Shown here: one piece after another, positions 8,672 to 60,259 of the stretch | How the letters are laid out: each line of letters starts with the position of its first letter | Position numbering within the stretch: position 1 is the stretch's first letter | Virus record (IMG/VR): IMGVR_UViG_2511231131_000001 | DNA: 64,000 nt | Strand: one strand, 5' to 3' | Origin: a virus | Taxonomy: Duplodnaviria > Heunggongvirae > Uroviricota > Caudoviricetes | Notes under the pieces: model-generated | What the model was told of the DNA's origin: nothing | Seen by the model: the letters and a program-made list of their open reading frames with translations, nothing else | Database searches by the model: none | Program-made: the position numbers and the translations under genes

Positions 8672-11600
8672 TTATGCGTATTGTTGGATGACGGCCAGAA
8701 CGTCCGCCACGTTGTGTTTTGTCTCGATAATCCACCAGTTACCCGGGAAATCGCTGTTCTTCGCCTTCGCTGGCAGCCAGCGAGCGCCGAATTTCGCCTT
8801 GATTGCGTCTTTCGCACGGAAAAGAACGCCTTTCATGCCTGAGGCTTCCTGAAGCCCAAATACCTCGCCAGCGGCGAATTTTGGTGCGTACATCATCTTC
8901 AGGTCGGCGGTGGATACGCGATAATTCAGACCAAGAGACTGAGCTATGCTGGTGGAATCACCCTGTATTGATGATAACTCTTCTTGTTTCTCGTTTCTGG
9001 CGGCAATCTCTTCCTCCGTGATGTTGCCAAGGGCTAGGTTTATCCGATCAGCGTCGGCCTGTTTCTCTTCATCGGTGCGCCCGGCAAGAACCGTGTTAAT
9101 TCTCTGCAATATCTCCACATGATTCTTGCGCATGCTGAGCAATTCCGGCGTAACCTCGTTAAGATCCACCAGCCCAAGGATGGCAAGGTCGGAAAACATT
9201 GATACCAGGTTGTAGGTCATGCGATAGCTGAGTTGACCATAGGCTGATGGCAACTTCACCGCATCCATTTGATAGGCATCCATAAATTTAGAGCCGTCGT
9301 TTACGACATCCGCTATTGCAGGTGTGATTTTCCCTGTGGTGGCGGCCTCCCTGATTGCTGTTACCCACGATTGAGTCAGCGCGGCGACTGCATGATTCAG
9401 ATTGGCTTCCCGTTCTGCTGCGATGCGCGCGCTTGCTGCGTCCATTGCCTGCTTGATCTCGGCTTTATTGCTGTAAATGCCAATGGTGCCAAACTGTGCT
9501 GTGGTGATCTCATAATCTGACCCCCGGAACTCATTGGTACCGAAAATGGCATTGGTGACTTCAAGTTCAGAATCCCCGTTACGAGTAGCCCCCTGGCTTG
9601 TTTTTTCCGGCATTCTGGCGATCGCATCCGCTATTTTCTCCTGAATTGCTTCAGGGGATAGCGTATCTCCGTATGACGCGATTACATCGCCATAATTGGA
9701 GCCAAACAATTCAACCAGGAATGTTTCTGCCGAACGGATCTGGCGGTTATTCCCTTCCGACATCATACCAAGCACCCATTTTGCAATTGACGACTTCAGC
9801 GCGCCGTCACGGCGATCCGGGTAAACCGCATGCTTCAGTGGGTCCGTATAGGTACCAACAAAATCAATGCTATAGCCTGACTCTGTAGTCTGAACGCCGT
9901 ACGAGTCAGTTATTTTGATCATGCCGCGCTGCTGGAAACGGTAGAAATCGTCACAGGAAATGATGTCGTTAATCCCGGCGATGGAGACGCCACCACTGAT
10001 TTTCTGCATAACAGCATCTTCATCGGGAGTTACATCCACCTGTTTATCCAGCGTCTTCACATCCCAGTTACCCGATTTGGTGCCTTTGAAGGTAAAGATG
10101 ATCTCCACGTCTGCGCGCTGGCTGTCGAAGTCCAGCGACTTAATGCGAACGATATCACCGGCACAATCGTAGTATTGGCCTACACGCCATGAGCGATCGC
10201 CGATAACAAGGAACTCACTCGCATGGTTAACCAGGTCAGGATCAACATCCAGAATGCCTTTATTTATTGCATCCTCCACCAGCGGGCGCAGGCGTTTGAT
10301 ATCCGTCGCGGCCTTCTGAGTACGGTTCAATAATTTCTCATAGCGGGAGATGGCTTGAGAGATATTAGCCTTGCGCTGAATGGCGTTTTTCAACGACGCG
10401 CGATACTGTGCTAACAACATACGGTCTGTGTGATGGACGCTCCCCCAGCGGGCCTTCCAGTCTGCGTTATCAGCTGCTTTGGCCATTACCGCCTGTTTGA
10501 ATTTAGCTACCTCGGCGGTGGTCTTTTCAAGTTCCGCTTTGCTTCGCTCTAATTCAGCGGTAAGTACCTCCACATCCTCGCCAGCTGCGTGCTGCGCCTT
10601 GATGTAGTTCTGAAGGTCGATAGTAGCCTGTTCTTTCTGGCGAGCGCGTTGCGCGGCTTTCGCCTTATCCATTTGAACCTGCATCATTGCCAGACGTTCG
10701 CCATCATCCTTAGCGGTATACATCTGCATTTCGATCATATCGTTGGCGTCGGCGTTCTCCATTTCAGACTTATCTGAGCGGAGGATATCGGAGATCCAGC
10801 CTGCTTTACGCTTCAGCGTCTTCAGTCGGTATTCATCGAAAGAACCCTTGCCGCAGTAGTAGTGAACGCGAACGCTTGCACGGTTGGAACCAACTCGGGC
10901 ACCGCGACCGTTACGCTGTGCGATACTGGCTGGTGTCCATGGCAACGTCAGATGATGGATGTCAGTCGTTCCTCGATGCAGGTTGATACCCACCTCTGCC
11001 TTTTTGTTGCAGATGATGATCGGAGTCCGGCCCTCCTGGAAGTCGGCAGCAATCTTTTCCAGCCCACCCAGCGACATTTCATTTTGCTGCGCGATATAGG
11101 CGTCATACAGAGCCATTTGCTCGTTGTATTTCGCTATCTGTGCATCTGTTGGTTCATCCGGTAGCTCTTTCGGCGGTTTAACCGCTTTCAGTTTCTTACC
11201 GGTTTTACCTGCCTCGGCAACCGTCTGAGCATTCAGGATCCCCACCTTTGAAGGTTCAAGGTTAAGAGCATTGCAGATAATGCGCTTGAGCTTCTGGTGT
11301 TGCGTTTTTTCATCGGTGAAGATGATTTGCTTACCTTCCGGGAAAAACTCCTTCAGCGTGGCAATCAGCTTCGCGTATTTGGGCGTAACGGGGTGAGTTA
11401 CGGTCTGTTCGTCAATGCCAAACTTGGCCAGGCGCTTATTCACTTCCTGCTCAAATGCTTCCGGTACCTGCAACTGAATAAACTCGCCCTTATCTATCAG
11501 GGAGTATTGCGATTGCTGCGTGATCGAATCATCACTGTCGTCGTCTTCGCTGGTGGCTTGTTTAGGCAAACTGTCCGCCAGCTGCTGCACCGCATCGGCG

Positions 11601-37680: not shown

Positions 37681-40600
37681 TCAACTCTCGCGTAGTCATT
37701 CATCAACGGATCATCAATTGACAGTGGCACCGTGCGCATAACGCCCGGTTGAGGCGTGCTGACCTTTACGACAGTTCCCTGGCCTTTCGCCGAGTCTTTA
37801 GTGTGCTCTTCAATCCTGGCAAGCAATGAGGTCATCTGCGCAAACAGCCGCTTCGTTTCACCATCAAGTGAAACGGTATTATCAGCCAACTGCATTGTCG
37901 GCTTGGCACCGGAGCCGCCAAGGTCACTAATAACCTGTCCGTCTATCTGCATACGACCGGTTGGTTGCTGCAAATCGTTGGCGGCAGTCGTCACCTGGGA
38001 CGTGGAGGCTGGTTCAGGCGCATTATTTTTCCGCATCCCCGGCGAGTTGCGGAGTTTATCAAATAGTCCATCAATCCCCATTTGTGCGCCGAGTTGGTCA
38101 AAGTAACTTGAGTTGCTGGCCACCGGACGCGCCTCTTCAACTGGCATCGGAGTATCAACATACACATTGCCAGCTGCTGTTGCGGTCCCCTTCCCTCGTG
38201 CACGTTCTTCGAGCGTTCCCTGAACGACTTCCCGACGCATACCCCGGCCATTCATGAATTTGTTGACCAGATCGTTAACGCCAACAGCATTGCCAATTTT
38301 GTCTACCAGACCGCCTTTCTCAAACGGGCTATCACCAGGGGTAAACGCCAGGCCAGTAGACTGATCGATAACAGCGTTATCAGGCAGTGGTCCCCTCACT
38401 CCATATTGCGCCCCACCCTGTGCTCCTGCTCCAGGTGTATAGATTTCACCACCTAAATAGCGAGCACGATGAGTATTGACCTTGATCGCGTACTCACGGT
38501 TTTCTTTCGATAAGTCACCTGTGCCTTTTTTCCACTTATTGATAGTGCCAAACCCAGCATTATATGCAGTGATGGCCTCGTTTAAGTCTCCATTGGCTTG
38601 CTTCAGATATTTGCTCATGAGAAGAGCCGCAGCTTCTGCCGATTTCACAGGATCAAACGATTCACCTTCAGCTAAGCCAGTCTCTTCACGAGCAATCCCC
38701 GTGAACTGAAACATCCCCAGAGCACCGGTTTGGGATTTTGCATACGGATTACCACCAGATTCAGTTGCAGCAATCGCGTAAAGAGTGCCTTCTGGAAGAC
38801 CGTATTTATTCTCTAGTTCGGCAAAATACGGAGCCAACTTATCGAGATTTGCCTTACCTTCAGCGCCAAGACTTCCGACTTTTACATCCAAGTTGCCATT
38901 GTTGTAGGTATCCGCAGCTTTCTGAATGTCATTCCTGGTGCCAGTGGTATTAAGCGACGATGATGACGAGCTATTTTGACCAATAGCTTTATCAATTTTC
39001 TGCAACGCGCTATTGCCCGTTTCTACGGCATTTGCATTGATAATCTGATTAGCAGTTTCTTTAACTGTTTTATTGCTATCTTTCGCCGTGTCCAGTGCCG
39101 CATTTATCACGCGGGTAACAATATTAGTCTGTTTGGCATCGGATTCAGTTTTAGAATCAGATGTCTCCTGGTGGCTATTAACCGGAGCTTTTAACTCTGG
39201 AGTGATTTCTTTCGCATTAGCCTCGCCGATCGGATTGGGTATTTTTGATACAATCATTGCCGCAGGGGTATTTTTAACGGCATCAACCGCTGCATCTAAT
39301 GCTTTACCTGGTAAATTTTTAACCCCATCCCAAATATTACCAGCCGCCTCTTTAATGTGTTTCCCTGGGTTCTTAATGAAATCAATTGCACTATCAATTG
39401 CATCACTGAAAACCTGTTTCAGGTTATCGACAGTAAAGAAGTCTTTGATGGCATCCAGCTTTTCAAGCAGCTTATTAGATGTATCGCTAAACCATGCTGA
39501 AACAGCATCACCAATCTTTGCTGTGTAATCATCGAACTTGGTAGAAATGGTGTCGCCAAGGTTAGAAATATATGTTTCTAAGTTGGTAATCCCACTATCA
39601 ATGGCATGGGCAATACTTTCCGTCGAAAATGATTGCAACATATTGCCGATATCCTCAAATCCAAGTGATTTGAGAACCTCACCAATGGCGCTGCTAATAC
39701 CAGATACCAGTCCCCCCATATCAAGAATATTAGCTAACGTATAAGCGGCTTTTTGCTGGAATGATGGATCTTGTCCTGATTTAAGCCCAAACGCTCGACG
39801 TTGCGCTTCTGTATCATTCCAACCGGTTACCGCATCATAAATACCTCCAACCACTGTGCCGACTAGGGGAATTGCGCGTAACGCCCCTTTACCAACTGCC
39901 TTTAATCCAAGTTTACCTGCTGCCCGGGCAGCCAAATCTCCGCCTTCATGGGCGAGAGTCTTCTTACCACCACCGCGTAGCATTCCTACAAGTTTCTTTG
40001 CCCCCAGAGCGCCAAAAGCGAGTGCTCCAGCTTTTTTCAGCATGCCACGCCCCATTAACAACGACGCGACGCCACCGGCCCCCTTCCCTAACAGGCTAAA
40101 TAGTTTGGACAGCAAGCCGCCCTTCTTTTTCCCGGTGTTTTTGGCTATCTGATCAAGGGCGCTGAGAATCTTGTCATTGCCCTCTTTAATTTCGCTGGTC
40201 TGCTCCTGAAGTTCCTGAACCGTCCGTTTTTGGGTGTTAACCTGAACGACATCGGCACTATTTTGCGATTTACGCCTAAAAAAACCTTTTCTACGGCTGT
40301 TATCGTCATTGCCACGAATCACATCGGCAATAGACTTTCTGGCACCATTAAGCGATCCGCCAACTTCTTTTGATATCCCGCCAAGCTCCTTCCCTGCTGC
40401 CCACAATGGACCTGCAACGGCATAACCTAACGCATCGACAGCACGAGTCTCTGAAGGGTTACCTATGCCTTCAGCTACTTTTGACAGTTTTTTTAATAAA
40501 CCTGATTCAGCATTTAGACGCTCATCATCCTCTTTTCGCCTGGCCTTTTCTGCTCGTTCAGCACGGGCATCTTCCGCTGCGGCCTTACTCCCTGACTTTC

Positions 40601-41069
40601 CAATAAAACGACCACGCGCATCGCGTTGGTTTTGGCTTTTTTGCGCACCGCCTTTTTGACCGAACATTTCGCGAGCGTGTTCGGCTGCTTCGGTCCGTTG
40701 TGCCTTTACATCCTCTGGTATAGCCTTCCTGCGTCGTTTTTTACCCTTTGGTGTGGTTGATTTGGCCCGCTGTTCCTGTTGAGCAACATCTTCCTGAACT
40801 ACACGAGAAACGTCCCCTAAATTAAGCCGTTTCATTGCCTCAACAATAGGGTCCACTGATGGCGCATTGGCCACAAAGTCTGGCCGGGAATTTTCGATTG
40901 TGCGATTTAATGCCGACACACTGCGAGAGACAGGATCAACAGTTGCAACGCGTCCCCCTTTCAAATCTTCAACAGCTTCCCGGATACCTGCAAGCTCTTC
41001 CAGCTCTTTTGCACTGGCGGTTTCAACTGTCCTTATAACATCGTCAATGTTGGCGTTTTTTCTTTCCAT
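37677..41069 (-). CDS. sit: Sit: tail tape-measure-like structural injection protein with lytic transglycosylase domain
   Basis: 1130 aa; SLT-like motif ATESGGNPYAKSQTGALGMFQFTG; Gly/Ala/Lys-rich repeats. Confidence 0.8.
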   Translation of the reverse strand: MERKNANIDDVIRTVETASAKELEELAGIREAVEDLKGGRVATVDPVSRSVSALNRTIENSRPDFVANAPSVDPIVEAMKRLNLGDVSRVVQEDVAQQEQRAKSTTPKGKKRRRKAIPEDVKAQRTEAAEHAREMFGQKGGAQKSQNQRDARGRFIGKSGSKAAAEDARAERAEKARRKEDDERLNAESGLLKKLSKVAEGIGNPSETRAVDALGYAVAGPLWAAGKELGGISKEVGGSLNGARKSIADVIRGNDDNSRRKGFFRRKSQNSADVVQVNTQKRTVQELQEQTSEIKEGNDKILSALDQIAKNTGKKKGGLLSKLFSLLGKGAGGVASLLMGRGMLKKAGALAFGALGAKKLVGMLRGGGKKTLAHEGGDLAARAAGKLGLKAVGKGALRAIPLVGTVVGGIYDAVTGWNDTEAQRRAFGLKSGQDPSFQQKAAYTLANILDMGGLVSGISSAIGEVLKSLGFEDIGNMLQSFSTESIAHAIDSGITNLETYISNLGDTISTKFDDYTAKIGDAVSAWFSDTSNKLLEKLDAIKDFFTVDNLKQVFSDAIDSAIDFIKNPGKHIKEAAGNIWDGVKNLPGKALDAAVDAVKNTPAAMIVSKIPNPIGEANAKEITPELKAPVNSHQETSDSKTESDAKQTNIVTRVINAALDTAKDSNKTVKETANQIINANAVETGNSALQKIDKAIGQNSSSSSSLNTTGTRNDIQKAADTYNNGNLDVKVGSLGAEGKANLDKLAPYFAELENKYGLPEGTLYAIAATESGGNPYAKSQTGALGMFQFTGIAREETGLAEGESFDPVKSAEAAALLMSKYLKQANGDLNEAITAYNAGFGTINKWKKGTGDLSKENREYAIKVNTHRARYLGGEIYTPGAGAQGGAQYGVRGPLPDNAVIDQSTGLAFTPGDSPFEKGGLVDKIGNAVGVNDLVNKFMNGRGMRREVVQGTLEERARGKGTATAAGNVYVDTPMPVEEARPVASNSSYFDQLGAQMGIDGLFDKLRNSPGMRKNNAPEPASTSQVTTAANDLQQPTGRMQIDGQVISDLGGSGAKPTMQLADNTVSLDGETKRLFAQMTSLLARIEEHTKDSAKGQGTVVKVSTPQPGVMRTVPLSIDDPLMNDYARVD

Positions 41070-52591: not shown

Positions 52592-54298
52592 TTACTCAGA
52601 GTCACCGGCATCAATCGTGTCGCCGCTAATGAAGTTAAGCCCGCCTTTTTTGGCCATTGTCAGCGTTACACGAGTGAAGTAATCAGCGCCGTTGCGTGGG
52701 TGCATATCGTTGATAGCCGAACCCCACAGCGTGGTACGGTTGACCAGCGCCGGAGTGGTCGGATGCTGGAACGGGATGGCCGGGACAGCATCACCAGTCA
52801 CGAAGCCTGCTTTACCCGGATTTTCATCACGGACGTAGCACAGCACATCCATCGAGCTGAACTGAATGTTCTCTGTCGTTAAGTTCTTACAAATACCAGC
52901 AGGTACTTCGTACACTTTCACGTTACCGAACAGGGTACCGATGTAGTGAACATACGGAGTCTGGATATAGTCTTCGGCTGGCTGGAAGAAATCCTTCGGC
53001 AACTGTTTGAAGAAAGATGCTGCATCAGCACCAGCAAACATCCCCATCGCACCAGAAGATTTAACGCGCTCAATAATGTCGCGATATACAGTCTGGAATT
53101 TGCCACGAATGATGGTTGCCCATACATCAAAGGACTGGTTAACCGGCAGAGCGATGTCAAAGGTGTCGGTCGCAAGAGTACGCCAGATCATGATGCGAAG
53201 ACGCAGCATATCCTGTTCATGAGACAGGTATTCCTTCAGGGTGCGGAACTGTAGGGAACCCAGGTCCAGACCAAATTCACGCTGTGCTTCATACGCCGCC
53301 TGTACCGTGTGCTCAGCCGCGATAACGAACTGGCTTGGGAACAGGGTGTATTTCTTCATTTCGTGGTTGATCAGCGGGATCAGCTCAGGAGCGGCTTCAA
53401 TATTGATTTCCGTCTCAATTGCGATCTCAGTGCCTTTATCCGGCGCTTTGGAGAACGACAGGGCAATCTGACCAATGTTGTAGTTCAGAGAGCAGGTAAC
53501 AGTGATTTGCTCACCAGCAGCATTAGTAAACGAGTGAAGTAGGCTGCCGGAACCGTTATCAACAACAGACTTAATACGGTTAACGTAGATATTAGTGCGA
53601 CCTTTTCGGATTGGTACATTCTGGCCTTCGAAGTCTTCCATCTTGAAGGTTGCGGTTTTGCTGGTGCCATCGGAGCTTGCCACCAGCACATAGCGGCGGC
53701 GTAACTGGCTGTACACACCGACGGATTGCATGTCCAGAACATCACCAGCAGCATAAGAACCAAAAGAGGAACCTGCCACGTTAAAGACTTCATAGATGTC
53801 GGACTGGTCACGCGTAACCGGAATGAAGGTACACGCATCAGCGGTAGCTGCCCCCAACTGAACAGGCAGGATCATCGCGAGGAATAAAGGCAGACGCATA
53901 ACACCGTCAGAAACGCTCATCATCTCTGCTGCGACGGATTCCAGCATCGCTTTATTAGTGGCATCCATGCTATTGCGGGTGGACTCAATCAGGCAGTTTT
54001 CCAGCGTCTGGTGGCAGGAGGCCAGAATTTCCGGACGCGGCATAGATTTATGTGCTGCGGCGTAGTCAGCCAGTGCACTTGCCCACGCTGTAGCGATTTG
54101 AGCGGTGGCATTATCAGAGATACCCGCAAAAACCGGGTCTTTACGTGCAGCTTCAAGGATAGATGCGGCACGCGCGGCATCATCTTTAATGAATTGGTTA
54201 TCAGTACCGAACTGCGCAGTGCTTGCCCAGCCAAGCACAGCTTTAGAGCGTTTTGCGATATCTGCAATACGATTCTGGTATTCGCGTAAGTTACTCAA
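52592..54298 (-). CDS. Putative major capsid protein (P1 gene 23 position)
   Basis: TTG start at 54298 with RBS AGGAAG 6 nt upstream (ORF track uses TTG 54319); adjacent to parS as in P1. Confidence 0.5.
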   Translation of the reverse strand: MSNLREYQNRIADIAKRSKAVLGWASTAQFGTDNQFIKDDAARAASILEAARKDPVFAGISDNATAQIATAWASALADYAAAHKSMPRPEILASCHQTLENCLIESTRNSMDATNKAMLESVAAEMMSVSDGVMRLPLFLAMILPVQLGAATADACTFIPVTRDQSDIYEVFNVAGSSFGSYAAGDVLDMQSVGVYSQLRRRYVLVASSDGTSKTATFKMEDFEGQNVPIRKGRTNIYVNRIKSVVDNGSGSLLHSFTNAAGEQITVTCSLNYNIGQIALSFSKAPDKGTEIAIETEINIEAAPELIPLINHEMKKYTLFPSQFVIAAEHTVQAAYEAQREFGLDLGSLQFRTLKEYLSHEQDMLRLRIMIWRTLATDTFDIALPVNQSFDVWATIIRGKFQTVYRDIIERVKSSGAMGMFAGADAASFFKQLPKDFFQPAEDYIQTPYVHYIGTLFGNVKVYEVPAGICKNLTTENIQFSSMDVLCYVRDENPGKAGFVTGDAVPAIPFQHPTTPALVNRTTLWGSAINDMHPRNGADYFTRVTLTMAKKGGLNFISGDTIDAGDSE

Positions 54299-54360
54299 TT
54301 TACTCTTCCTTAAACACAAGGCACTTGTGTGAATCCCTTTTCGGAAGAGATTTTATTGAA

Positions 54361-54370
54361 AGTCACTTGT
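54361..54370 (-). promoter_or_regulatory. Candidate late promoter for the capsid operon (ACAAGTGACT followed by TAAAAT, minus strand)
   Basis: Same motif as upstream of prt and mat. Confidence 0.35.
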
Positions 54371-54429
54371 TGACTTTCTCGTGACAAGCAATTTTTTTAT
54401 TTTTTTCGGGAGTAGGGGAGGAAGGTAAA

Positions 54430-54525
54430 ATCCAAGGTGAAATCGTGGCGATTTCACCTTGAAATTTTAGAGGGATTTACTTTAAAAACAGTAGGTTAAT
54501 AGTGAAATTTGAATGGCGAAAGTTT
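54430..54525. other. parS: parS partition site (ParB box A heptamers and box B hexamers around an AT-rich putative IHF region)
   Basis: GTGAAAT-cg-TGGCGA-TTTCAC at 54437-54457 and GTGAAAT...TGGCGA at 54502-54519, downstream of parB. Confidence 0.7.
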
Positions 54526-55525
54526 AAGGCTTCGGCTTTTTATCGAGGCTCTTTCTAAGGATATGCCCAATCATCCTGTCGAGTTCTTCCTGTAACTCTT
54601 TTGAAAGTCGATTAAACTCATAAGAAAATGCACGGCCTTTCACGCGCTTCCTTGCAAAGCGATCCTTGTCCTCAAATTTCCATAATTCAGTAACTACGGA
54701 CTTATCTTTAGAACCTTTATCCGTGAGTAGTGAGGCTTCCTTTGTTATCAAGCGCAGGATTTTATTTTTAACTTCATCTTCGGCCATTTCTTCAATGGAT
54801 AAGATGTCGTTTATTTCCGGGGATATGTTTTGAATAAGCTGATCAAACTCTAAATTCTTGTTCCCCATTTCGTCGCCAACAGCACAAAGCGTTTTGTAGT
54901 CCGAAAAGGTCAATTCCGACTGCACAGGGAAAAGGGCGACTAATTCTTCCGGAGCACTCGCTGCCTGGAGAGCACGCGTGACCTTCGCCTGAGATAGCCC
55001 TTCTTTGGCTGCAATATCCTTCTGACTCATCCCATCATTTTTCATTCGCATCAAACGCAGACCTATTTCTCGAATGCTGTGCTGCAATGCTGTCTGAACG
55101 TCTTTCGCTAAATTTTGCGCTTCCTGAACGCTGATCTCCTGGTCCGTGACTAAAACCCGCAACCCTACGTTCTCTAAGATGGCAGAAGCTCGACGCCGGG
55201 AACCATCCAAAATTTCAATTTTCCCTGTAGCCCGTCTAACACCTATTGCAGGGTAAAATTGCTGATGCTTAATAGTGCTTCGGATACTTTTTAATGATTT
55301 TGGCGTAAGAGATGCCTGGTCACGACCATTGTTATGCTGATCAACAAAGGTATCGCTTTCTACCTGATTCGGAGGTATTACCTCTTCAATAAATGTGGCC
55401 TGGCGACCTGTTGATAACTTGAATACCTGCTCGACTCGATCGCCAGAGGCTGAAGAACTATCAAATCCGCTTAATATTGAAGGATTAAGGGTTCGCCCAA
55501 TTGTTGGTCTGTTTTTCTTTGACAT
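54524..55525 (-). CDS. parB: ParB partition protein
   Basis: 333 aa, the size recalled for P1 ParB; adjacent to parA and parS. Confidence 0.85.
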   Translation of the reverse strand: MSKKNRPTIGRTLNPSILSGFDSSSASGDRVEQVFKLSTGRQATFIEEVIPPNQVESDTFVDQHNNGRDQASLTPKSLKSIRSTIKHQQFYPAIGVRRATGKIEILDGSRRRASAILENVGLRVLVTDQEISVQEAQNLAKDVQTALQHSIREIGLRLMRMKNDGMSQKDIAAKEGLSQAKVTRALQAASAPEELVALFPVQSELTFSDYKTLCAVGDEMGNKNLEFDQLIQNISPEINDILSIEEMAEDEVKNKILRLITKEASLLTDKGSKDKSVVTELWKFEDKDRFARKRVKGRAFSYEFNRLSKELQEELDRMIGHILRKSLDKKPKP

Positions 55526-55541
55526 GGGGGTTTCTTACTCC

Positions 55542-56738
55542 TCAGTTAGATCTGATAAATTCAATACGGTCAAAAACTGCTTTAGCAAAATCTTCCGCGG
55601 CAATTCGCGCGTTCTTCAATGCATCAGCACTACCAACATACGTTGCCGGGTTAGCTGAAATAACAGTGTCAAAAGACTCGCCGCAGCGTTCAAAACCGTC
55701 AAGGCGAGGGAGGACGACATCGAGCATATCCCCACCGAACACTTCTTTAGCCAGGCTATGGCAATACTTATGATCTGCCTTGTTACTCAACTTGGACATA
55801 AAACCAATGTTAGTCGCAAGCTGGCACTCGCAGCCTTCATCCGAAATGAGTTTTACCAACTCAGGAAGGCGGGCAACGTATTTAAGCGATGAATGGAAAT
55901 CGACAGTTGCTGGCGGCAGAGGTGTAAACAGTATATTGGCCGAGGCCAAAGCATTTTTCAGGAAGGCATCAAGGTGAGGACCACTATCAACGAGGATAAA
56001 GTCATAATCGCTCTTCAGCTTATCAATCACATTTTCTTTCAGGACAGCATGGATGTTCTGACCCGGTAGATGCTCATTGCACAGCTCTCTCCAATCGGAT
56101 GCAATAAAGGCATCGTCAATCGACGCAGGCATAACGTCAACCCCAGGTACAACAGAAGGAACAATAAACTCCTCTAACAGCTCTTCACGGCTTACATTCT
56201 GCAACATAGCCTGTGCAGATGTTGCGTTTACGATACCAATAGAGTGTTTATGGCTTAAAAACATCGTCGCTGAAGATTGCGGATCAAGGTCAATAACCAG
56301 AATCCTTAAATCTTCCATCAGAAGATGAGGGTGGGCACGCATTGCATGCGCCAGAGAAACCGTCGATACAGTTTTTGACACACCGCCTTTAAGATTGGAG
56401 ATGAAAATCACATACGCTTCGCTGTAGCGATCCCGGTATTTTGGCACTCCGCGATGTTCATATATGTCAATGATGTTCTGAATTGACATCGCATATTTCA
56501 TTGAAGAGCCAGCAGGGCGTTTATCGAAAACATAACCCTTTTCTTCCATTTCACTTACGGCATAGTCAACGTTCGCTCGAGTCAGTAGAGGCAATTTTGC
56601 CAGTGCCGCTTTCGCATAGACCTGGTAAAACTCGTTCGCGTGTAGCTCATCCTTTTGCAACTGTACTTGTTCAGTCAGAACATTGAGCATTCTGTTTGCT
56701 CTTTGAGCAACCTTGTGAAGCTGGCTGGAATCACTCAT
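55542..56738 (-). CDS. parA: ParA partition ATPase
   Basis: 398 aa; deviant Walker A SNLKGGVSKT; type Ia ParA with N-terminal DNA-binding extension. Confidence 0.88.
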   Translation of the reverse strand: MSDSSQLHKVAQRANRMLNVLTEQVQLQKDELHANEFYQVYAKAALAKLPLLTRANVDYAVSEMEEKGYVFDKRPAGSSMKYAMSIQNIIDIYEHRGVPKYRDRYSEAYVIFISNLKGGVSKTVSTVSLAHAMRAHPHLLMEDLRILVIDLDPQSSATMFLSHKHSIGIVNATSAQAMLQNVSREELLEEFIVPSVVPGVDVMPASIDDAFIASDWRELCNEHLPGQNIHAVLKENVIDKLKSDYDFILVDSGPHLDAFLKNALASANILFTPLPPATVDFHSSLKYVARLPELVKLISDEGCECQLATNIGFMSKLSNKADHKYCHSLAKEVFGGDMLDVVLPRLDGFERCGESFDTVISANPATYVGSADALKNARIAAEDFAKAVFDRIEFIRSN

Positions 56739-56884
56739 CGAAAGTCATCCTTTATGCTGTATTTTTGAATTTACTTAAAAATGCTGCATAAAATAATAAT
56801 GTATGCACAGATGCTTGTACATAGCATTCTCTGCATGTTTGGTTCATTTTGCACGATTGAGAGTTACAAGGAGGGCACAAAAAA

Positions 56885-56899
56885 GCCCCGTTCAGGGGC
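56885..56899 (-). terminator. Rho-independent terminator after the T5orf172-like gene (GCCCC-gttca-GGGGC then T6 on the minus strand)
   Basis: Stem-loop 8 nt downstream of the stop at 56907. Confidence 0.6.
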
Positions 56900-56906
56900 A
56901 TCAGTG

Positions 56907-57716
56907 TTATTTGCTAAGAGCAGCGAATAATCGTTCGAAATCGATAGTATCTATAGCACGCGTAAGCGCCGGAAGTTCAGCCTCAAAGTACCCGTGTCGA
57001 TCGTAAAAGAAGGGACCGAAGAGCGAGGCATGTTGGATTCTACTTCGCCCCAGCCCGGACACACAGTTAAGCCCATTACCGGCTAAAAGGCTAAAAAACT
57101 TCTCTGGATTATCGTGGTAAAGCTGGGAATCAATGGTGGCGGTTAACTCTTCCATAGGGAAGCACACCCGCCCTGTCTCCCAGGGATATTTAGTCCGAAG
57201 CATAAACATTGCTTTCAGCAATTCACATTGAGCGCGGATCGCGTCCGGTTCATAGCCAGATATGGAGACATAAGCCACGTCCCTCATTCCTGCGTCATCT
57301 TTGAAAGTCACGATAGAAGTAACATCCAGCTCTTTTTCGAAAGAGCAAGCAGCATCTACTGGACGCTGAAGTAAATCATTCGACTTGATGCGCTCGAGAA
57401 TCCCTCCCCACATATCATTTAGATATTCGATATGAGCCAAAACCTTATCAAGACACTCTCGTGTAAACCATTCAGTATGCCCGCCACCGGCGCTTTTCTC
57501 CCACGGCGCATTCCAGGGGAAAAAGGTTGCGTGTAAAGCCCGCTCAAGATTAACCATTGCCAAACGCGTACCACGATAGACCCGTGAAAGCGCAAAATCG
57601 GGACTCACTTGTAGCCCTTTAAACCGTGCCAATGGACCACATGAAATGCCGATTTTAAAAGTATCTCCGTTCTCTGGCACCAGAACGTAGAGGTAGTGTT
57701 GTTTCTCTTCTTGCAT
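56907..57716 (-). CDS. T5orf172 / GIY-YIG-like domain protein with uncharacterised C-terminal domain
   Basis: 269 aa; N-terminus YLYVLVPENGDTFKIGIS...RF...LERALHATF...GGGHTEWFT matches the T5orf172 signature; between incA iterons and parA. Confidence 0.6.
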   Translation of the reverse strand: MQEEKQHYLYVLVPENGDTFKIGISCGPLARFKGLQVSPDFALSRVYRGTRLAMVNLERALHATFFPWNAPWEKSAGGGHTEWFTRECLDKVLAHIEYLNDMWGGILERIKSNDLLQRPVDAACSFEKELDVTSIVTFKDDAGMRDVAYVSISGYEPDAIRAQCELLKAMFMLRTKYPWETGRVCFPMEELTATIDSQLYHDNPEKFFSLLAGNGLNCVSGLGRSRIQHASLFGPFFYDRHGYFEAELPALTRAIDTIDFERLFAALSK

Positions 57717-57750
57717 ATCAATACCACTGCTTGATGAGAGTCGCGCAAAT

Positions 57751-58006
57751 GTTGACTATGCGCGAAGGTTAATGTGAATAGTTGACTATGCGCGATGTGA
57801 CTACAGTCAAAAGTTGACTGTAGTCGATTTAACTCCACCAAAGATCGACTATGTAAGATATTGTCGGGAGAAACGTTGACTATACGCGATGAAATGGGCC
57901 TAAAAGCCATCTCAATAGCGACTTGCAGAATATTGACGCCAGCAAAAATCCACCAGCGTCAACGAATGTCGCCTATAGTCAACTTCTCGCTATCGCATAT
58001 AGTCAA
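57751..58006. repeat. incA: incA-like iteron array (about 8 copies, both orientations) downstream of repA
   Basis: Repeats of GTTGACTATGCGCGA and variants at 57751, 57781, 57796, 57813, 57844, 57875; inverted copies at 57968 and 57992. Confidence 0.7.
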
Positions 58007-58008
58007 TA

Positions 58009-58929
58009 TTATGGATTGCGCTTATGGATCTGGAAGCCGATTTTCCTGCCGTTTTTTATCTCTGAAAATTTAAGATATTCAATAGCTTCCAAATCTTTCA
58101 TGGCTTTTCTGATAACGCTATTTTGCACGCTAACGGATGATTTGAGATTAAGCCTCGCTCTAAGGCGCTCAATGCTGACAGGTGCCGGGTTGGCGGGTAG
58201 AGCCTCAAAGAATGTATACAGTACCTTGGCTGTCTCTTTGCGCCCTAGTTTATCCAGCATCTTCAGCTTCAGGATTCGCTTATAGTCAACATAGTAAAGT
58301 TCAGATAGCTGTTTCTGCGGCTGGATCTCGATAACATCAAGCTCGGTATTCAGGCTGCTATATGCCAACAAGTTGACGTTAATGTTATTGAGATGACCTT
58401 TTGCCGCCGGGAAGCGGAATTTGACAACTGTCTGCTGAATGCGTGTCAGAGAGTCATCAATACTTTTACGGAACGCCTTTGAAAGACGCTTACGTGGATA
58501 GCCGCATCGATCGGCAAACTCGGAGAATGGCAGGGTGATTATACCGTCATCATCAGGTGCATAGTCAAACAACGCGGAGGTTATGCCCACCCACACCTTA
58601 AAATCAGTATCCATATCCAGGCGTGGACCATGAATTTCAATTCCCTCATAGCCTTCCTGCTCAACAATTTTGAGGCTTGATAGTTCTTCAGTTGCGTTCG
58701 TTGTGTTTGTTGTAACTGACGATCCGCGACGTAGCGCCACATTGGTAGATTTTAAGGTTGGCACAAACACACCTAAACGCAACAAAGCGATGGGTTGTAT
58801 AGTGCTGTTGTTATTGGGCTTCAGGCTGTGGATTTCTCCTGTATTTCCTGCAACTTCTTCAACGCTAAGGAAGCCTTTACTTTCTTCCGGCATCGTGGTT
58901 TCTCCATGTGTGGCGCGGCCTGACGTCAA
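58009..58929 (-). CDS. repA: RepA plasmid replication initiator
   Basis: Contains GVFVP and GPRLDMDTDFKVW segments recalled from P1 RepA; flanked by iteron arrays; alternative start at MPEESKG. Confidence 0.8.
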   Translation of the reverse strand: MTSGRATHGETTMPEESKGFLSVEEVAGNTGEIHSLKPNNNSTIQPIALLRLGVFVPTLKSTNVALRRGSSVTTNTTNATEELSSLKIVEQEGYEGIEIHGPRLDMDTDFKVWVGITSALFDYAPDDDGIITLPFSEFADRCGYPRKRLSKAFRKSIDDSLTRIQQTVVKFRFPAAKGHLNNINVNLLAYSSLNTELDVIEIQPQKQLSELYYVDYKRILKLKMLDKLGRKETAKVLYTFFEALPANPAPVSIERLRARLNLKSSVSVQNSVIRKAMKDLEAIEYLKFSEIKNGRKIGFQIHKRNP

Positions 58930-58973
58930 TTTGGATGGCTGTTATCAACAGCTGTGAATATTCAGACTCTAAA

Positions 58974-59075
58974 ATCGCGTACAGTCAATGTTTCTGTCGC
59001 GTATAGTCAACAATAAATCGCGTGCAGTCAACAATAAATCGTGCACAGTCAACATAAAATCGCGTATAGTCAATG
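58974..59075. repeat. incC: incC-like origin iterons (5 direct copies, about 21-bp period) upstream of repA
   Basis: ATCGCGTACAGTCAATG, GTCGCGTATAGTCAACA, ATCGCGTGCAGTCAACA, ATCGTGCACAGTCAACA, ATCGCGTATAGTCAATG. Confidence 0.75.
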
Positions 59076-59110
59076 TTGATCCCATTTCAGGCCAGAAATG
59101 ACGCGGCTTA

Positions 59111-59185
59111 CAGCGATCCGGGATCTTCTTTGGATCTTACTAGGTTCTCTTTAGGATCTGTTTATTGGATCGATGCTGTGGATAA
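59111..59185. promoter_or_regulatory. oriR: oriR-like GATC cluster (5 Dam sites) plus DnaA box
   Basis: GATC at 59115, 59122, 59133, 59154, 59168; TGTGGATAA (DnaA box) at 59177-59185; adjacent to incC iterons. Confidence 0.65.
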
Positions 59186-59227
59186 GTTGAATAAACCGGC
59201 CAACATAGCCGGTTAGAAGGAAGGGTA

Positions 59228-59620
59228 TTATTCTACGCTTTCGATGAGAAGGCCATGTTCATAACATTTAAGCTCATCGCCTTCGTACAGGAATTGGTAT
59301 CCAATACCACCATTTTCATGGACATTAGGGAATAACTCATAACTCACTGAAGAGCAAATCACACCAATGCAGCGATCAACGCCTTCTCGTTCTTCAGTGC
59401 TGAAAAAATCCTCTTCGGTAAGAACATGAGTACATTGCTCATCAGCATAGGTCGGAAATACATGCTCGATACAATCCGGATGTTTTAAACCAAGTTGATC
59501 GGCAAGTTCGAAAGCATGACGGTATTGTTCAGATCCTGGCTTGCCAACAGTGATGTGCTCAATTTTGTAGATTGAAGTCGCTTTGTTGATAGTTTGCTTT
59601 ACTGTTACTTTATCAGACAT
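59228..59620 (-). CDS. Hypothetical protein (upfA position)
   Basis: 130-aa ORF. Confidence 0.4.
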   Translation of the reverse strand: MSDKVTVKQTINKATSIYKIEHITVGKPGSEQYRHAFELADQLGLKHPDCIEHVFPTYADEQCTHVLTEEDFFSTEEREGVDRCIGVICSSVSYELFPNVHENGGIGYQFLYEGDELKCYEHGLLIESVE

Positions 59621-59631
59621 AAAAATCCCTT

Positions 59632-59964
59632 TTAGTTACCGCTGATAGCGCGGTTGTAATCATTAACGTTGCGATTCTTCCTGTTAATCCCCATCAGCAT
59701 CGTTTCTGTATCGAGGATATACGCTGGCAGATCATCAAAATATTCACTGCTAAACTCTGGCATCCTGCACATAAATGCACTTTTTGGGGCAGGGTGGTTA
59801 ACCTTTGTCGGCGTCGGCGTTAAATTCGCTGATCGACTCCCGGAGCAACCGCTGAGTGTCAGCAGGAATACGCTGGCGAACATTACCCGCCGCAACAAGT
59901 TGTTTCTGAACTTCAGCTTTTCGTTCCATTTGCCTGTCAGCATACTTGGCTTGTTCTGATTCAT
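59632..59964 (-). CDS. Lipoprotein, o-spanin-like (Rz1-like), start embedded in the upstream i-spanin-like gene
   Basis: Signal peptide with lipobox LTLSGC, proline-rich mature N-terminus (TPTPTKVNHPAPKS); RBS AGGAAG before ATG 59964. Confidence 0.5.
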   Translation of the reverse strand: MNQNKPSMLTGKWNEKLKFRNNLLRRVMFASVFLLTLSGCSGSRSANLTPTPTKVNHPAPKSAFMCRMPEFSSEYFDDLPAYILDTETMLMGINRKNRNVNDYNRAISGN

Positions 59965-60220
59965 TTTTCACTTCCTGGCTGTGAAAATGTTGCTCTGCTT
60001 TGTTCATCGTCTCAATGGTCTGGTTAAGATCCATTATTGACTTATCACGTTCCTTAACAGCCTGATCAAGACTGCCAATTTTCTCCATGGCTTGCTTTAG
60101 CTGATGACGTTCCCACGCAAACCCAGCACCAACAAGTGCGCAAATCAGAACAAGAACACCAGTAGCAGCAAGTTTCTCCTTCAAAGACAAAGCTGTTTTT
60201 AATGTAGAAAAGAATGACAT
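59798..60220 (-). CDS. i-spanin-like (Rz-like) protein: N-terminal TM helix plus coiled-coil periplasmic domain
   Basis: ATG 60220 with RBS AGGAGG; TM segment TGVLVLICALVGAGFAW; overlaps the lipoprotein gene by 167 nt in another frame. Confidence 0.5.
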   Translation of the reverse strand: MSFFSTLKTALSLKEKLAATGVLVLICALVGAGFAWERHQLKQAMEKIGSLDQAVKERDKSIMDLNQTIETMNKAEQHFHSQEVKNESEQAKYADRQMERKAEVQKQLVAAGNVRQRIPADTQRLLRESISEFNADADKG

Positions 60221-60259
60221 GTCTTCCTCCTGAAGAAAAATTATCAATGAAGTCCTTTG

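What the first reader, a model, noticed from the sequence alone, without database searches (positions are those of the whole stretch)
56880..57750. T5orf172/GIY-YIG-like gene inserted between the incA iterons and the par operon
A 269-aa minus-strand ORF with a T5orf172-type N-terminus (YLYVLVPENGDTFKIGIS ... HTEWF) and an unknown 170-aa C-terminal domain sits directly downstream of the incA iteron array and has its own terminator before the parA promoter. In P1 as I recall it, incA abuts the par promoter with no gene between. T5orf172 domains recur in defence islands and as accessory nucleases, so this is either a defence/anti-defence cargo or a nuclease tied to the replicon.
Basis: partly seen in the sequence, partly recalled or inferred. 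Interest (0 to 1): 0.65.

Follow-up and report, generated by a model that had tools for sequence, protein, structure and literature searches.

The report
Replicon-linked T5orf172 nuclease gene in P1-like plasmid
A real but uncharacterised two-domain nuclease gene sits between the plasmid replication repeats and the partition operon of this P1-like phage-plasmid; it is absent from classical P1, lies at the edge of a swapped replication module, and most likely is a selfish or competitive DNA-cutting gene of the homing-endonuclease kind.

Summary
A 269-aa ORF (56907-57716, minus strand) starts 31 nt after the last iteron downstream of repA and ends 8 nt before a hairpin/T-run terminator, upstream of the par promoter. 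Canonical P1 has only a ~190-bp spacer there.

It is not a simple insertion here. Positions 56841-59090 (ori iterons, repA', incA-like iterons, ORF, terminator) replace P1's IncY cassette with the p0111 replicon. Homologs with diverged C-domains occupy the same slot in three other P1-like elements, covering three RepA/iteron types in all.

The gene evolves fast (44% identity between flanks 84-89% identical; pN/pS 0.34 versus 0.002-0.055) and is repeatedly knocked out.

Best reading, at moderate confidence: a free-standing homing-endonuclease-like or Odn-like nuclease at a boundary of genetic exchange. No known defence family matches. About 7% of complete E. coli genomes carry it, annotated but never studied. 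It is a new variant of a known kind.

The parts
56907..57716 (-). ORF269: gene for the two-domain T5orf172 nuclease-like protein (269 aa plus stop)
   Evidence: ORF listing. Pfam PF10544 at 27.5 bits against a cut-off of 20. Full-length match to PHROG 2876, function unknown. Annotated 'GIY-YIG nuclease family protein' in RefSeq plasmids.
57366..57716 (-). N-terminal T5orf172 / GIY-YIG-fold domain (residues 1-117), with invariant Y10, K21, G23, R31, E58, E82, W83, F84
56910..57365 (-). C-terminal lineage-specific domain (residues 118-269). It is acidic (pI 5.0) and its predicted fold is closest to Rep-initiator WH1 domains.
56885..56899 (-). Intrinsic-terminator-like hairpin (GCCCCTGAACGGGGC) followed by TTTTTT, 8 nt after the ORF269 stop codon
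   Evidence: sequence.
57751..58007 (.). incA-equivalent iteron array downstream of repA: five copies in one orientation at about 31-bp spacing (57751-57889) and two in the other (57969-58007)
   Evidence: Repeat families D4-D6. Pattern search gives 13 matches against 2.6 expected.
58009..58893 (-). repA' (p0111-type Rep_3-family initiator). It is 294 aa from the ATG; the open frame runs up to a TTG at 58929.
   Evidence: Pfam Rep3_C/Rep3_N. RefSeq annotates an 885-nt gene in the identical plasmid. 41% identical to P1 RepA.
58975..59074 (-). Origin (incC-equivalent) iterons: five copies at 21-22 bp spacing
56841..59090 (.). Replicon cassette with no homology to P1. Its flanks are 99.1% (54000-56840) and 94.6% (59091-61000) identical to P1. 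ORF269 is the last gene at its par-side edge.
   Evidence: blastn of the window against P1. All IncY-type P1 matches stop at query nt 138-141, which is window ~56838-56840.
56793..56821 (-). Ppar promoter (TGTACA-17-TATTAT), inside the P1-identical flank
   Evidence: The same hexamers are annotated as Ppar in P1.
54524..56738 (-). parA (55542-56738) and parB (54524-55525), P1-type partition operon

Best explanation
ORF269 encodes a site-directed DNA endonuclease of the T5orf172 (GIY-YIG superfamily) homing-endonuclease/Odn class. It lives as a free-standing accessory gene in the spacer between the last incA-type iteron and the par promoter of P1-like phage-plasmids.

Proposed mechanism:
- The N-terminal domain cuts DNA.
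- The fast-evolving C-terminal domain, with a Rep-WH1-like predicted fold, directs the enzyme. The target would be DNA, or a Rep-iteron complex, of a related element that lacks the gene or carries another replicon.
- The break is repaired from the nuclease-carrying genome. That copies the gene and, because the neighbouring replicon cassette has no homology to the rival, the whole cassette with it (marker exclusion / co-conversion).
- This would explain why the gene sits exactly at the edge of the exchanged replicon block.
- It is probably transcribed from the repA side through the iteron array. No terminator lies between repA and the ORF, and no consensus promoter lies upstream of it.

Shown here: domain identities, conserved slot, cassette boundaries, fast divergence, weak constraint and recurrent knock-outs.

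Inferred only: nuclease activity, the target, homing or exclusion, and the route of transcription.
For: 2. Free-standing, present or absent in an intergenic slot between conserved genes. P1 lacks it. Four diverged P1-like elements with three RepA/iteron types carry a homolog whose ATG lies 20-31 nt after the last iteron.
3. Position at a boundary of genetic exchange. Homology to P1 resumes 45 nt beyond its terminator. Barth et al. 2023 describe this for T5orf172 HEGs (PMC10448857).
4. Conflict-type evolution. ORF identity is 44% while the flanking RepA and ParA are 84% and 89% identical. N-domain identity is 59% against 27-32% for the C-domain.
5. Accessory and dispensable. pN/pS is 0.34 against 0.02 (repA), 0.002 (parA) and 0.055 (parB). 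Independent W68*, S112* and Q228* mutations and a 1.76-kb insertion occur.
6. A targeting domain of replication-initiator type has a precedent in Odn, which is T5orf172 plus RepA_N (PMC8263062, PMC10448857). The best non-nuclease structural matches here are Rep WH1 domains and RctB, in two independent programs.
Against: - The C-domain is acidic in all four variants (pI 5.0-5.4, net charge -3 to -7). Typical HEG DNA-binding domains and RepA (pI 9.3-9.5) are basic.
- It has none of the Zn-finger (CapR/DUF723) modules found in 87% of T5orf172 HEGs (PMC10448857).
- There is no sequence similarity to the neighbouring RepA family (hhalign probability 0.2%).
- Within the p0111 lineage the gene is essentially fixed: about 400 plasmids hold the ORF and about 397 hold this RepA. 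No mobility of the gene on its own is documented.
- pN/pS of 0.34 still indicates some purifying selection, which would also fit a host- or plasmid-beneficial function.
- No cleavage site, target or activity could be tested.
Confidence: 0.42

Rival explanations
1. Single-gene anti-phage (abortive-infection type) or anti-plasmid defence effector carried as cargo. The variable acidic C-domain senses an invader protein and releases the N-terminal nuclease.
For: - The C-domain diverges fast between conserved flanks.
- An acidic, non-DNA-binding-looking C-domain fits a protein sensor.
- Recurrent knock-outs are typical of costly defence genes.
- A distant N-domain homolog lies in a chromosomal island with Mrr- and WYL-domain genes (L007).
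- Phage-plasmids are known carriers of defence genes (PMC13221032, abstract).
Against: - PADLOC gives 0 hits at E <= 1, and NCBIfam gives none.
- The slot is not a cargo hotspot. It holds either this one gene family or nothing, in four lineages and three replicon types.
- No partner genes are present.
- The position immediately after the iterons, with no promoter of its own, is unexplained by this model.
Confidence: 0.18
2. Replicon accessory factor. The Rep-WH1-like C-domain pairs with RepA, whose WH1 is the dimerisation domain of Rep_3 initiators. This would tune initiation or iteron handcuffing, or bring the nuclease to RepA-iteron complexes.
For: - The slot is conserved, in the same orientation as repA, with the ATG 20-31 nt after the last iteron in three replicon types.
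- No terminator lies between repA and the ORF.
- The best non-nuclease fold matches are Rep WH1 domains.
- Acidic C-domain against basic RepA.
Against: - It is dispensable. P1 replicates without it, and natural nonsense alleles, including that of the SJ46 reference phage-plasmid, are maintained.
- The C-domain does not co-vary with RepA. In window versus L002, RepA is 84% identical and the C-domain 32%. In L003 versus L005, RepA is about 42% identical and the C-domain 27%.
- There is no sequence similarity to RepA.
- Constraint is far weaker than on repA, parA and parB.
Confidence: 0.15
3. Decaying selfish relic or non-catalytic DNA-binding/regulatory protein. On this view it is a former homing endonuclease now fixed with the p0111 cassette, with little or no present function.
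For: - It is fixed in the p0111 lineage, so no empty sites are left within that lineage.
- Nonsense and insertion alleles are frequent: 8 of 45 IMG/VR copies. N-terminally truncated protein clusters hold 229 and 205 members against 1241 full-length.
- pN/pS is 6- to 150-fold higher than in the neighbouring genes.
- T5orf172 was first described as a DNA-binding module (10.1101/2020.11.28.402263).
Against: - pN/pS of 0.34 is well below 1 in both domains.
- The catalytic-type residues are invariant over very distant homologs.
- Most copies are intact.
- IncY-type P1 elements lacking the gene still co-circulate in E. coli, about 160 genomes against 401, so targets for homing still exist.
Confidence: 0.15

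Closest known systems
T5orf172-family homing endonuclease genes of ICP1, T5-like and other phages (Barth, Dunham & Seed 2023, PMC10448857)
   Same: - T5orf172 nuclease domain at one terminus plus a separate, variable second domain.
- Free-standing gene in an intergenic slot next to essential genes.
- Located at the boundary of an exchanged block.
- Modular, fast-diverging non-nuclease part.
   Different: - The nuclease domain is N-terminal here.
- There is no CapR/DUF723/DUF4397 Zn-finger; the second domain is acidic and unique to P1-like elements.
- The host element is a temperate phage-plasmid, and the neighbour is a plasmid replicon rather than a lytic-phage essential operon.
- Homing is not demonstrated.
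Odn (ICP1 Gp88) and the E. coli phage Inny/Muut/Mt1B1_P17 nucleases: T5orf172 fused to a RepA_N domain, cutting a satellite's origin at its iterons (PMC8263062, PMC10448857)
   Same: - T5orf172 nuclease combined with a domain of replication-initiator type. Here that rests on predicted fold only.
- Involvement with iteron replicons.
- The conserved Arg and Glu that Odn needs for cleavage are present.
   Different: - Odn's targeting domain is 42% identical to the satellite RepA. Here no sequence similarity to any Rep is detectable.
- Domain order is reversed.
- The gene sits beside its own element's replicon, and its target, if any, is unknown.
T4 Seg proteins and I-TevI (GIY-YIG homing endonucleases; textbook knowledge)
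   Same: N-terminal GIY-YIG-fold catalytic domain of about 100 aa, a linker, then a C-terminal targeting domain. The Seg genes are free-standing intergenic genes that cause localised marker exclusion and co-conversion of flanks.
   Different: - It belongs to a different subfamily, T5orf172: FKIG instead of YIG, and a TEWF motif.
- The C-terminal domain is unrelated and acidic.
- There is no detectable sequence similarity.
SLX1 structure-specific GIY-YIG endonuclease (PDB 6seh, 7cq2, 7wme)
   Different: It is a eukaryotic repair nuclease with a RING domain and an SLX4 partner. Sequence identity is only 11-18%. This is fold-level similarity, not family membership.

Membership tests
T5orf172 domain family (Pfam PF10544, GIY-YIG clan) | Profile HMM score above Pfam's gathering threshold | tested here: met
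   27.5 bits against a cut-off of 20, E=4.7e-6, residues 8-85 matching profile positions 2-87 of 101. The related MUG113 model is below its cut-off: 15.3 against 22.3.
T5orf172 domain family (Pfam PF10544, GIY-YIG clan) | GIY-YIG-type alpha/beta core fold | tested here: met
T5orf172 domain family (Pfam PF10544, GIY-YIG clan) | Conserved catalytic-type Arg (first helix) and Glu (after the third strand) | tested here: met
   R31 and E82, with Y10, K21, G23, E58, W83 and F84, are invariant in 33 homologs. Equivalence to I-TevI R27/E75 and Odn E180 is inferred from motif order and predicted secondary structure, not from an explicit alignment. The PDB sequence search gave no GIY-YIG hit.
T5orf172 domain family (Pfam PF10544, GIY-YIG clan) | Endonuclease activity | not testable with these tools
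   Needs purified protein and an E82A control.
Free-standing homing endonuclease gene (HEG) | Intergenic gene that is present or absent between conserved genes in related genomes | tested here: met
   Absent in P1. Present in the same slot in the window, L002, L003/L004 and L005. In L003 it replaces only the ~200-bp incA-Ppar spacer of a P1-type replicon.
Free-standing homing endonuclease gene (HEG) | Separate sequence-specific DNA-binding domain | tested here: inconclusive
Free-standing homing endonuclease gene (HEG) | Lies at a boundary of recombinational exchange / co-converted flank | tested here: met
   P1 identity is 99.1% up to 56840, 45 nt beyond the gene's terminator, and nil from there to 59090. 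The same breakpoint is seen in all IncY-type matches.
Free-standing homing endonuclease gene (HEG) | Cleaves the gene-less allele and is copied into it (homing) | not testable with these tools
   Needs in vitro cleavage and mixed-infection or lysogen-challenge crosses.
Odn-type origin-directed nuclease | Targeting domain homologous in sequence to a replication initiator's DNA-binding domain | tested here: not met
   hhalign of the C-domain profile against the P1-family RepA profile gives probability 0.2%. No Rep family appears in Pfam or PDB sequence searches. No relatives were found in 5.8 billion or 1.84 billion proteins.
Odn-type origin-directed nuclease | Targeting domain with the fold of a Rep initiator domain | tested here: inconclusive
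Odn-type origin-directed nuclease | Iteron-dependent cleavage of a rival origin | not testable with these tools
   Needs nuclease assays on IncY, p0111 and L005-type origins with and without their iterons.
Known anti-phage defence systems (PADLOC-DB v2) | Match to any defence-protein HMM | tested here: not met
   0 families at E <= 1.
P1 incA control locus | Array of RepA-binding iterons downstream of repA, matching the origin iterons | tested here: met
   Seven copies downstream and five upstream of repA belong to one family. The sequence (GTTGACTATRCGCGA) is unrelated to P1's 19-bp iteron, so this is the p0111 equivalent of incA and not P1 incA itself.

The most novel reading that the evidence does not exclude
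ORF269 and its three allelic relatives are replicon-linked, origin-directed nucleases, a plasmid-side counterpart of ICP1's Odn. Each P1-like phage-plasmid would carry, just after its own control iterons and under RepA-dependent transcription, a T5orf172 nuclease. The Rep-WH1-like domain would steer that nuclease to the Rep-iteron complexes or origins of rival P1-type replicons.

The rival would be destroyed or converted. This would drive both the spread of the p0111 cassette through P1 backbones and the diversification of P1-family replicons into IncY, p0111 and further types.
Probability: 0.15. Interest if true: 0.8.

Novelty: new variant of a known kind. Interest (0 to 1): 0.5.

Why it matters
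P1-like phage-plasmids are common carriers of ESBL, mcr and other resistance genes. The p0111 form with this gene is in 401 of 5,426 complete E. coli genomes, about 2.5 times as many as the classical IncY form.

The papers on these elements either do not mention the gene or call it unknown (PMC9603915, PMC6906374). None of the phage-plasmid papers retrieved contains the term GIY-YIG.

If it is an active homing-type or origin-directed nuclease, three things follow:
- It would explain mechanistically how a whole plasmid replicon was swapped into the P1 backbone, and why that form predominates.
- It would extend the 'nucleases at boundaries of genetic exchange' idea from lytic phages to plasmid replicons.
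- It would add a nuclease-based layer to plasmid incompatibility and competition.

Practical points: it marks the p0111/IncY breakpoint at window 56840, and one phage record annotates it, apparently wrongly, as a small terminase subunit.

Tried and rejected
- PADLOC and NCBIfam scans of ORF269 gave no hits.
- Single-sequence AF2 gave pLDDT 37 and was unusable. It was replaced by a 5-sequence alignment model.
- The AFDB50 fold library was not available.
- Sequence searches of the C-domain alone found nothing outside the family. This covered Pfam, PDB sequences, a profile against 5.8 billion proteins, and full-length phmmer against 1.84 billion representatives.
- hhalign of the C-domain against the P1-family RepA alignment gave probability 0.2%. 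I therefore rejected a recent Odn-like capture of the neighbour's RepA domain.
- An HMM of the four C-domains against the about 70 distant N-domain homologs gave no credible shared C-domain.
- A PDB sequence search with the 33-sequence N-domain profile gave no GIY-YIG hit. Mapping of the catalytic residues therefore rests on motif order and fold.
- A consensus sigma-70 promoter scan upstream of the ORF found nothing convincing in the four loci. The only candidate is in L002, about 160 nt upstream. The route of transcription stays an inference.
- A sliding-window diversity profile across 38 IMG/VR loci was uninformative, because indels upstream of the origin broke colinearity. The apparently odd loci L019, L026 and L013 turned out to be ordinary p0111 contexts with small indels.
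- I considered that P1's own ~190-bp spacer might hold a remnant of the gene. Neither tblastn nor blastn shows similarity.

Full report
**1. What is in the sequence**

The window is a P1-like phage-plasmid. On the minus strand the order is:
- five origin iterons (58975-59074)
- repA (58893/58929..58009)
- a second iteron array (57751-58007)
- a 269-aa ORF (57716..56907)
- a hairpin/T-run terminator (56899..56885)
- the par promoter (56821..56793)
- parA, parB and the major head gene

The iteron family GTTGACTATRCGCGA occurs 13 times at up to 3 mismatches, against 2.6 expected; none of 100 shuffles reached 13. The ORF's ATG lies 31 nt after the last iteron and its stop lies 8 nt before the terminator stem.

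**2. Domain content**

- Pfam finds T5orf172 (PF10544) over residues 8-85 at 27.5 bits, above the curated cut-off of 20.
- PHROGs has a full-length family of unknown function, phrog_2876, at E=2e-194.
- PADLOC and NCBIfam give nothing.
- In an alignment of 33 homologs of the N-domain, Y10, K21, G23, R31, E58, E82, W83 and F84 are invariant. S44, H62, G79 and T81 are nearly so.
- This is the T5orf172 version of the GIY-YIG motif set. The Arg and Glu correspond in order to those needed for catalysis in I-TevI and in the T5orf172 nuclease Odn, where the residue is E180 (PMC8263062).
- Residues ~118-269 match no Pfam family and no PDB sequence. They have no relatives outside this small family in 1.84 billion representatives or 5.8 billion clusters.

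**3. Structure**

- A single-sequence AF2 model was useless, at pLDDT 37.
- With a five-sequence alignment the model reached pLDDT 72.8 and pTM 0.52. Low confidence is confined to residues 1-3, 73-80 and the 117-126 linker.
- Foldseek against the PDB independently puts RctB, the MSBI1.176 Rep WH1, SLX1, RepE54 and pPS10 RepA at the top. However, its E-values are only 0.07-1.
- Foldseek against viral models gives many T5orf172 proteins at probability 1.00. Among them are annotated homing endonucleases of T5-like coliphages and ICP1 ORF88.

I conclude that the N-domain is a GIY-YIG-fold T5orf172 domain. The C-domain is plausibly a Rep-WH1-like winged-helix domain, but that second point is tentative.

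**4. Relation to P1**

- blastn of window 54000-61000 against P1 gives 99.1% identity for 54000-56840 and 94.6% for 59091-61000. Nothing matches between them except a 59-nt patch inside repA.
- In P1 the corresponding 1.5 kb holds the incC iterons, repA and incA. A spacer of about 190 bp follows before Ppar, with no gene in it.
- RepA here is 41% identical to P1 RepA. It is the 'p0111' initiator described for JL22, SJ46 and RCS47. [quoted passage not shown]
- So in this window the gene is the last gene of a 2.25-kb replicon cassette that replaced P1's cassette. It is not a simple insertion.

**5. Distribution**

- The 1.3-kb region is 98.5-99.2% identical in phi456, SJ46, JL22, RCS47 and others.
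- tblastn finds the protein in 400 PLSDB plasmids, all at 90% identity or more. RepA of this type is in about 397.
- Among 5,426 complete E. coli genomes, 401 carry the whole region. About 160 carry only the P1-type par end and break off at query nt 138-141; these are the IncY form.
- RefSeq annotates the protein as 'GIY-YIG nuclease family protein'. One phage record calls it a small terminase subunit.
- None of the phage-plasmid papers retrieved mentions GIY-YIG.

**6. The key comparative result**

The exhaustive protein search found only three other relatives with a matching C-domain. All three are encoded between repA and parA of diverged P1-like elements, which are about 65-70% identical to the window in DNA.

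| Locus | Source | RepA / iteron type | ORF |
|---|---|---|---|
| L002 | 95.7-kb contig | RepA 84% identical to the window's; same iterons | 44% identical to ORF269 |
| L003/L004 | Salmonella enterica | RepA 83% identical to P1 RepA; nine P1-type incA iterons | P0010 |
| L005 | faecal metagenome | third RepA type (42-48% identical); third iteron sequence, GGCTACTGNATGCTAC | P0011 |

In L002 the flanking ParA is 89% identical to the window's. In L003 the ORF replaces just the ~200-bp incA-Ppar spacer of P1.

In every case the gene is on the repA strand and its ATG is 20-31 nt after the last iteron. Across the pairs window/L002 and L003/L005 the N-domain is 59% identical, but the C-domain only 32% and 27%. 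The L003/L005 pair have unrelated replicons, so the protein does not co-vary with RepA or iteron type. More distant N-domain homologs lie in other mobile-element contexts and do not share the C-domain.

**7. Selection**

- Among 45 copies (window, L001, IMG/VR loci) there are 24 intact haplotypes, with pN/pS 0.34: 0.29 for the N-domain and 0.39 for the C-domain.
- In the same loci pN/pS is 0.02 for repA, 0.002 for parA and 0.055 for parB.
- Eight copies are disrupted by independent events: W68* (TGG to TAG), S112* (TCG to TAG, five loci), Q228* (CAA to TAA, in the SJ46 reference), and a 1.76-kb insertion with a 229-bp deletion.
- Truncated protein clusters are also large: 229 and 205 members against 1241 full-length.

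The gene is therefore real and under some purifying selection. It is also accessory, dispensable for replication and maintenance, and frequently lost.

**8. Interpretation**

- a terminal T5orf172 nuclease domain with intact catalytic-type residues
- a modular, rapidly diverging second domain
- a free-standing intergenic location next to essential maintenance genes
- presence/absence polymorphism
- a position exactly at the edge of an exchanged block

The same group showed that a T5orf172 domain can be joined to a Rep-derived DNA-binding domain to make Odn, which cuts a rival element's origin at its iterons. They also showed that E. coli phages have evolved analogous nucleases (PMC8263062, PMC10448857). 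The tentative Rep-WH1-like fold of the C-domain, and its placement against the replicon's iterons, make that comparison attractive.

A break made in a gene-less P1 near the incA-par spacer could only be repaired from a p0111 donor by copying everything up to the next homology at the origin side (59091). That would carry the whole replicon cassette across. This is an inference, but it accounts for the cassette's exact limits.

**9. Reasons for caution**

- All four C-domains are acidic (pI 5.0-5.4), whereas RepA proteins are at pI 9.3-9.5.
- There are no Zn-finger modules like those of most T5orf172 HEGs (PMC10448857).
- There is no sequence similarity to RepA.
- The structural similarity is modest and rests on a shallow alignment.
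- Within the p0111 lineage the gene is fixed with the replicon, so independent mobility is not documented.
- An acidic domain would also fit a protein-binding role. It could sense a phage protein (defence) or pair with RepA's WH1 (replicon accessory).
- Expression is unresolved. No consensus promoter precedes the ORF, and no terminator separates it from repA in the window, L002 or L005. Only the window and L005 show a clear terminator after the gene. Co-transcription with repA through the iterons is my inference.

**10. Verdict**

The T5orf172 nuclease assignment and absence from P1 hold. In this window it is a replicon-cassette swap rather than an insertion. Defence is unsupported, and the link to the replicon is supported.
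- Best explanation, at confidence about 0.4: a homing-endonuclease-like or Odn-like site-directed nuclease acting in competition between P1-type elements.
- It is a new variant of a known kind. It is widespread and annotated but functionally unstudied, and the hypothesis is readily testable.

Noticed in passing
window 56907-57716; phage record OR339795.1 (phi456) 39982-40788: The same ORF is annotated 'terminase small subunit' in Escherichia phage phi456. RefSeq calls it a GIY-YIG nuclease family protein. The terminase label looks like a mis-annotation.
   Followed up: partly
L030 (SJ46, IMG/VR copy) 4324-5130; L032-L036; L047: Natural nonsense alleles of the gene: Q228* in the SJ46 reference genome, S112* in five IMG/VR loci, and W68* in one.
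   Followed up: yes
L050 5295-7057 (IMG/VR 2645727563_000002): A 1.76-kb insertion inside the ORF, with loss of the equivalent of window 57194-57422. It is probably an IS element, but its identity was not determined.
   Followed up: partly
window 58276-58290: An iteron copy with one mismatch to the consensus lies inside the repA coding sequence. The same site is kept in L002, at about 9612-9626 (GTTGACTATAAGCGA).
   Followed up: no
L026 4952-4969 versus window 57765-57777: The incA-like array differs by a few bases (about 12 nt by the alignment coordinates), at a repeat junction between the first two iterons, between otherwise 98-99% identical elements.
   Followed up: no
L001 (NZ_CP022733.1, pSA186_4): PLSDB/MOB-suite types this replicon as 'IncHI1B', whereas the literature types it as p0111. 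Automated replicon typing of these phage-plasmids may be misleading (PMC9603915).
   Followed up: no
E. coli chromosomes, e.g. NZ_CP007394.1 2172390-2173690 and NZ_CP178203.1 3511521-3512821: Ten of the 573 places holding this locus are on chromosomes rather than plasmids. This suggests integrated or mis-assembled P1-like elements.
   Followed up: no
window 59091-59230 and L009 6308-6430: The replicon swap keeps P1's own DnaA-box/GATC-rich half of oriR, at 94.6% identity from 59091. It replaces only the iterons and repA, so the origin is a chimera of P1 and p0111 parts.
   Followed up: partly
window 58894-58929: The repA open frame extends 12 codons upstream to a TTG. RefSeq starts the gene at the ATG (294 aa). 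The true start was not determined.
   Followed up: no
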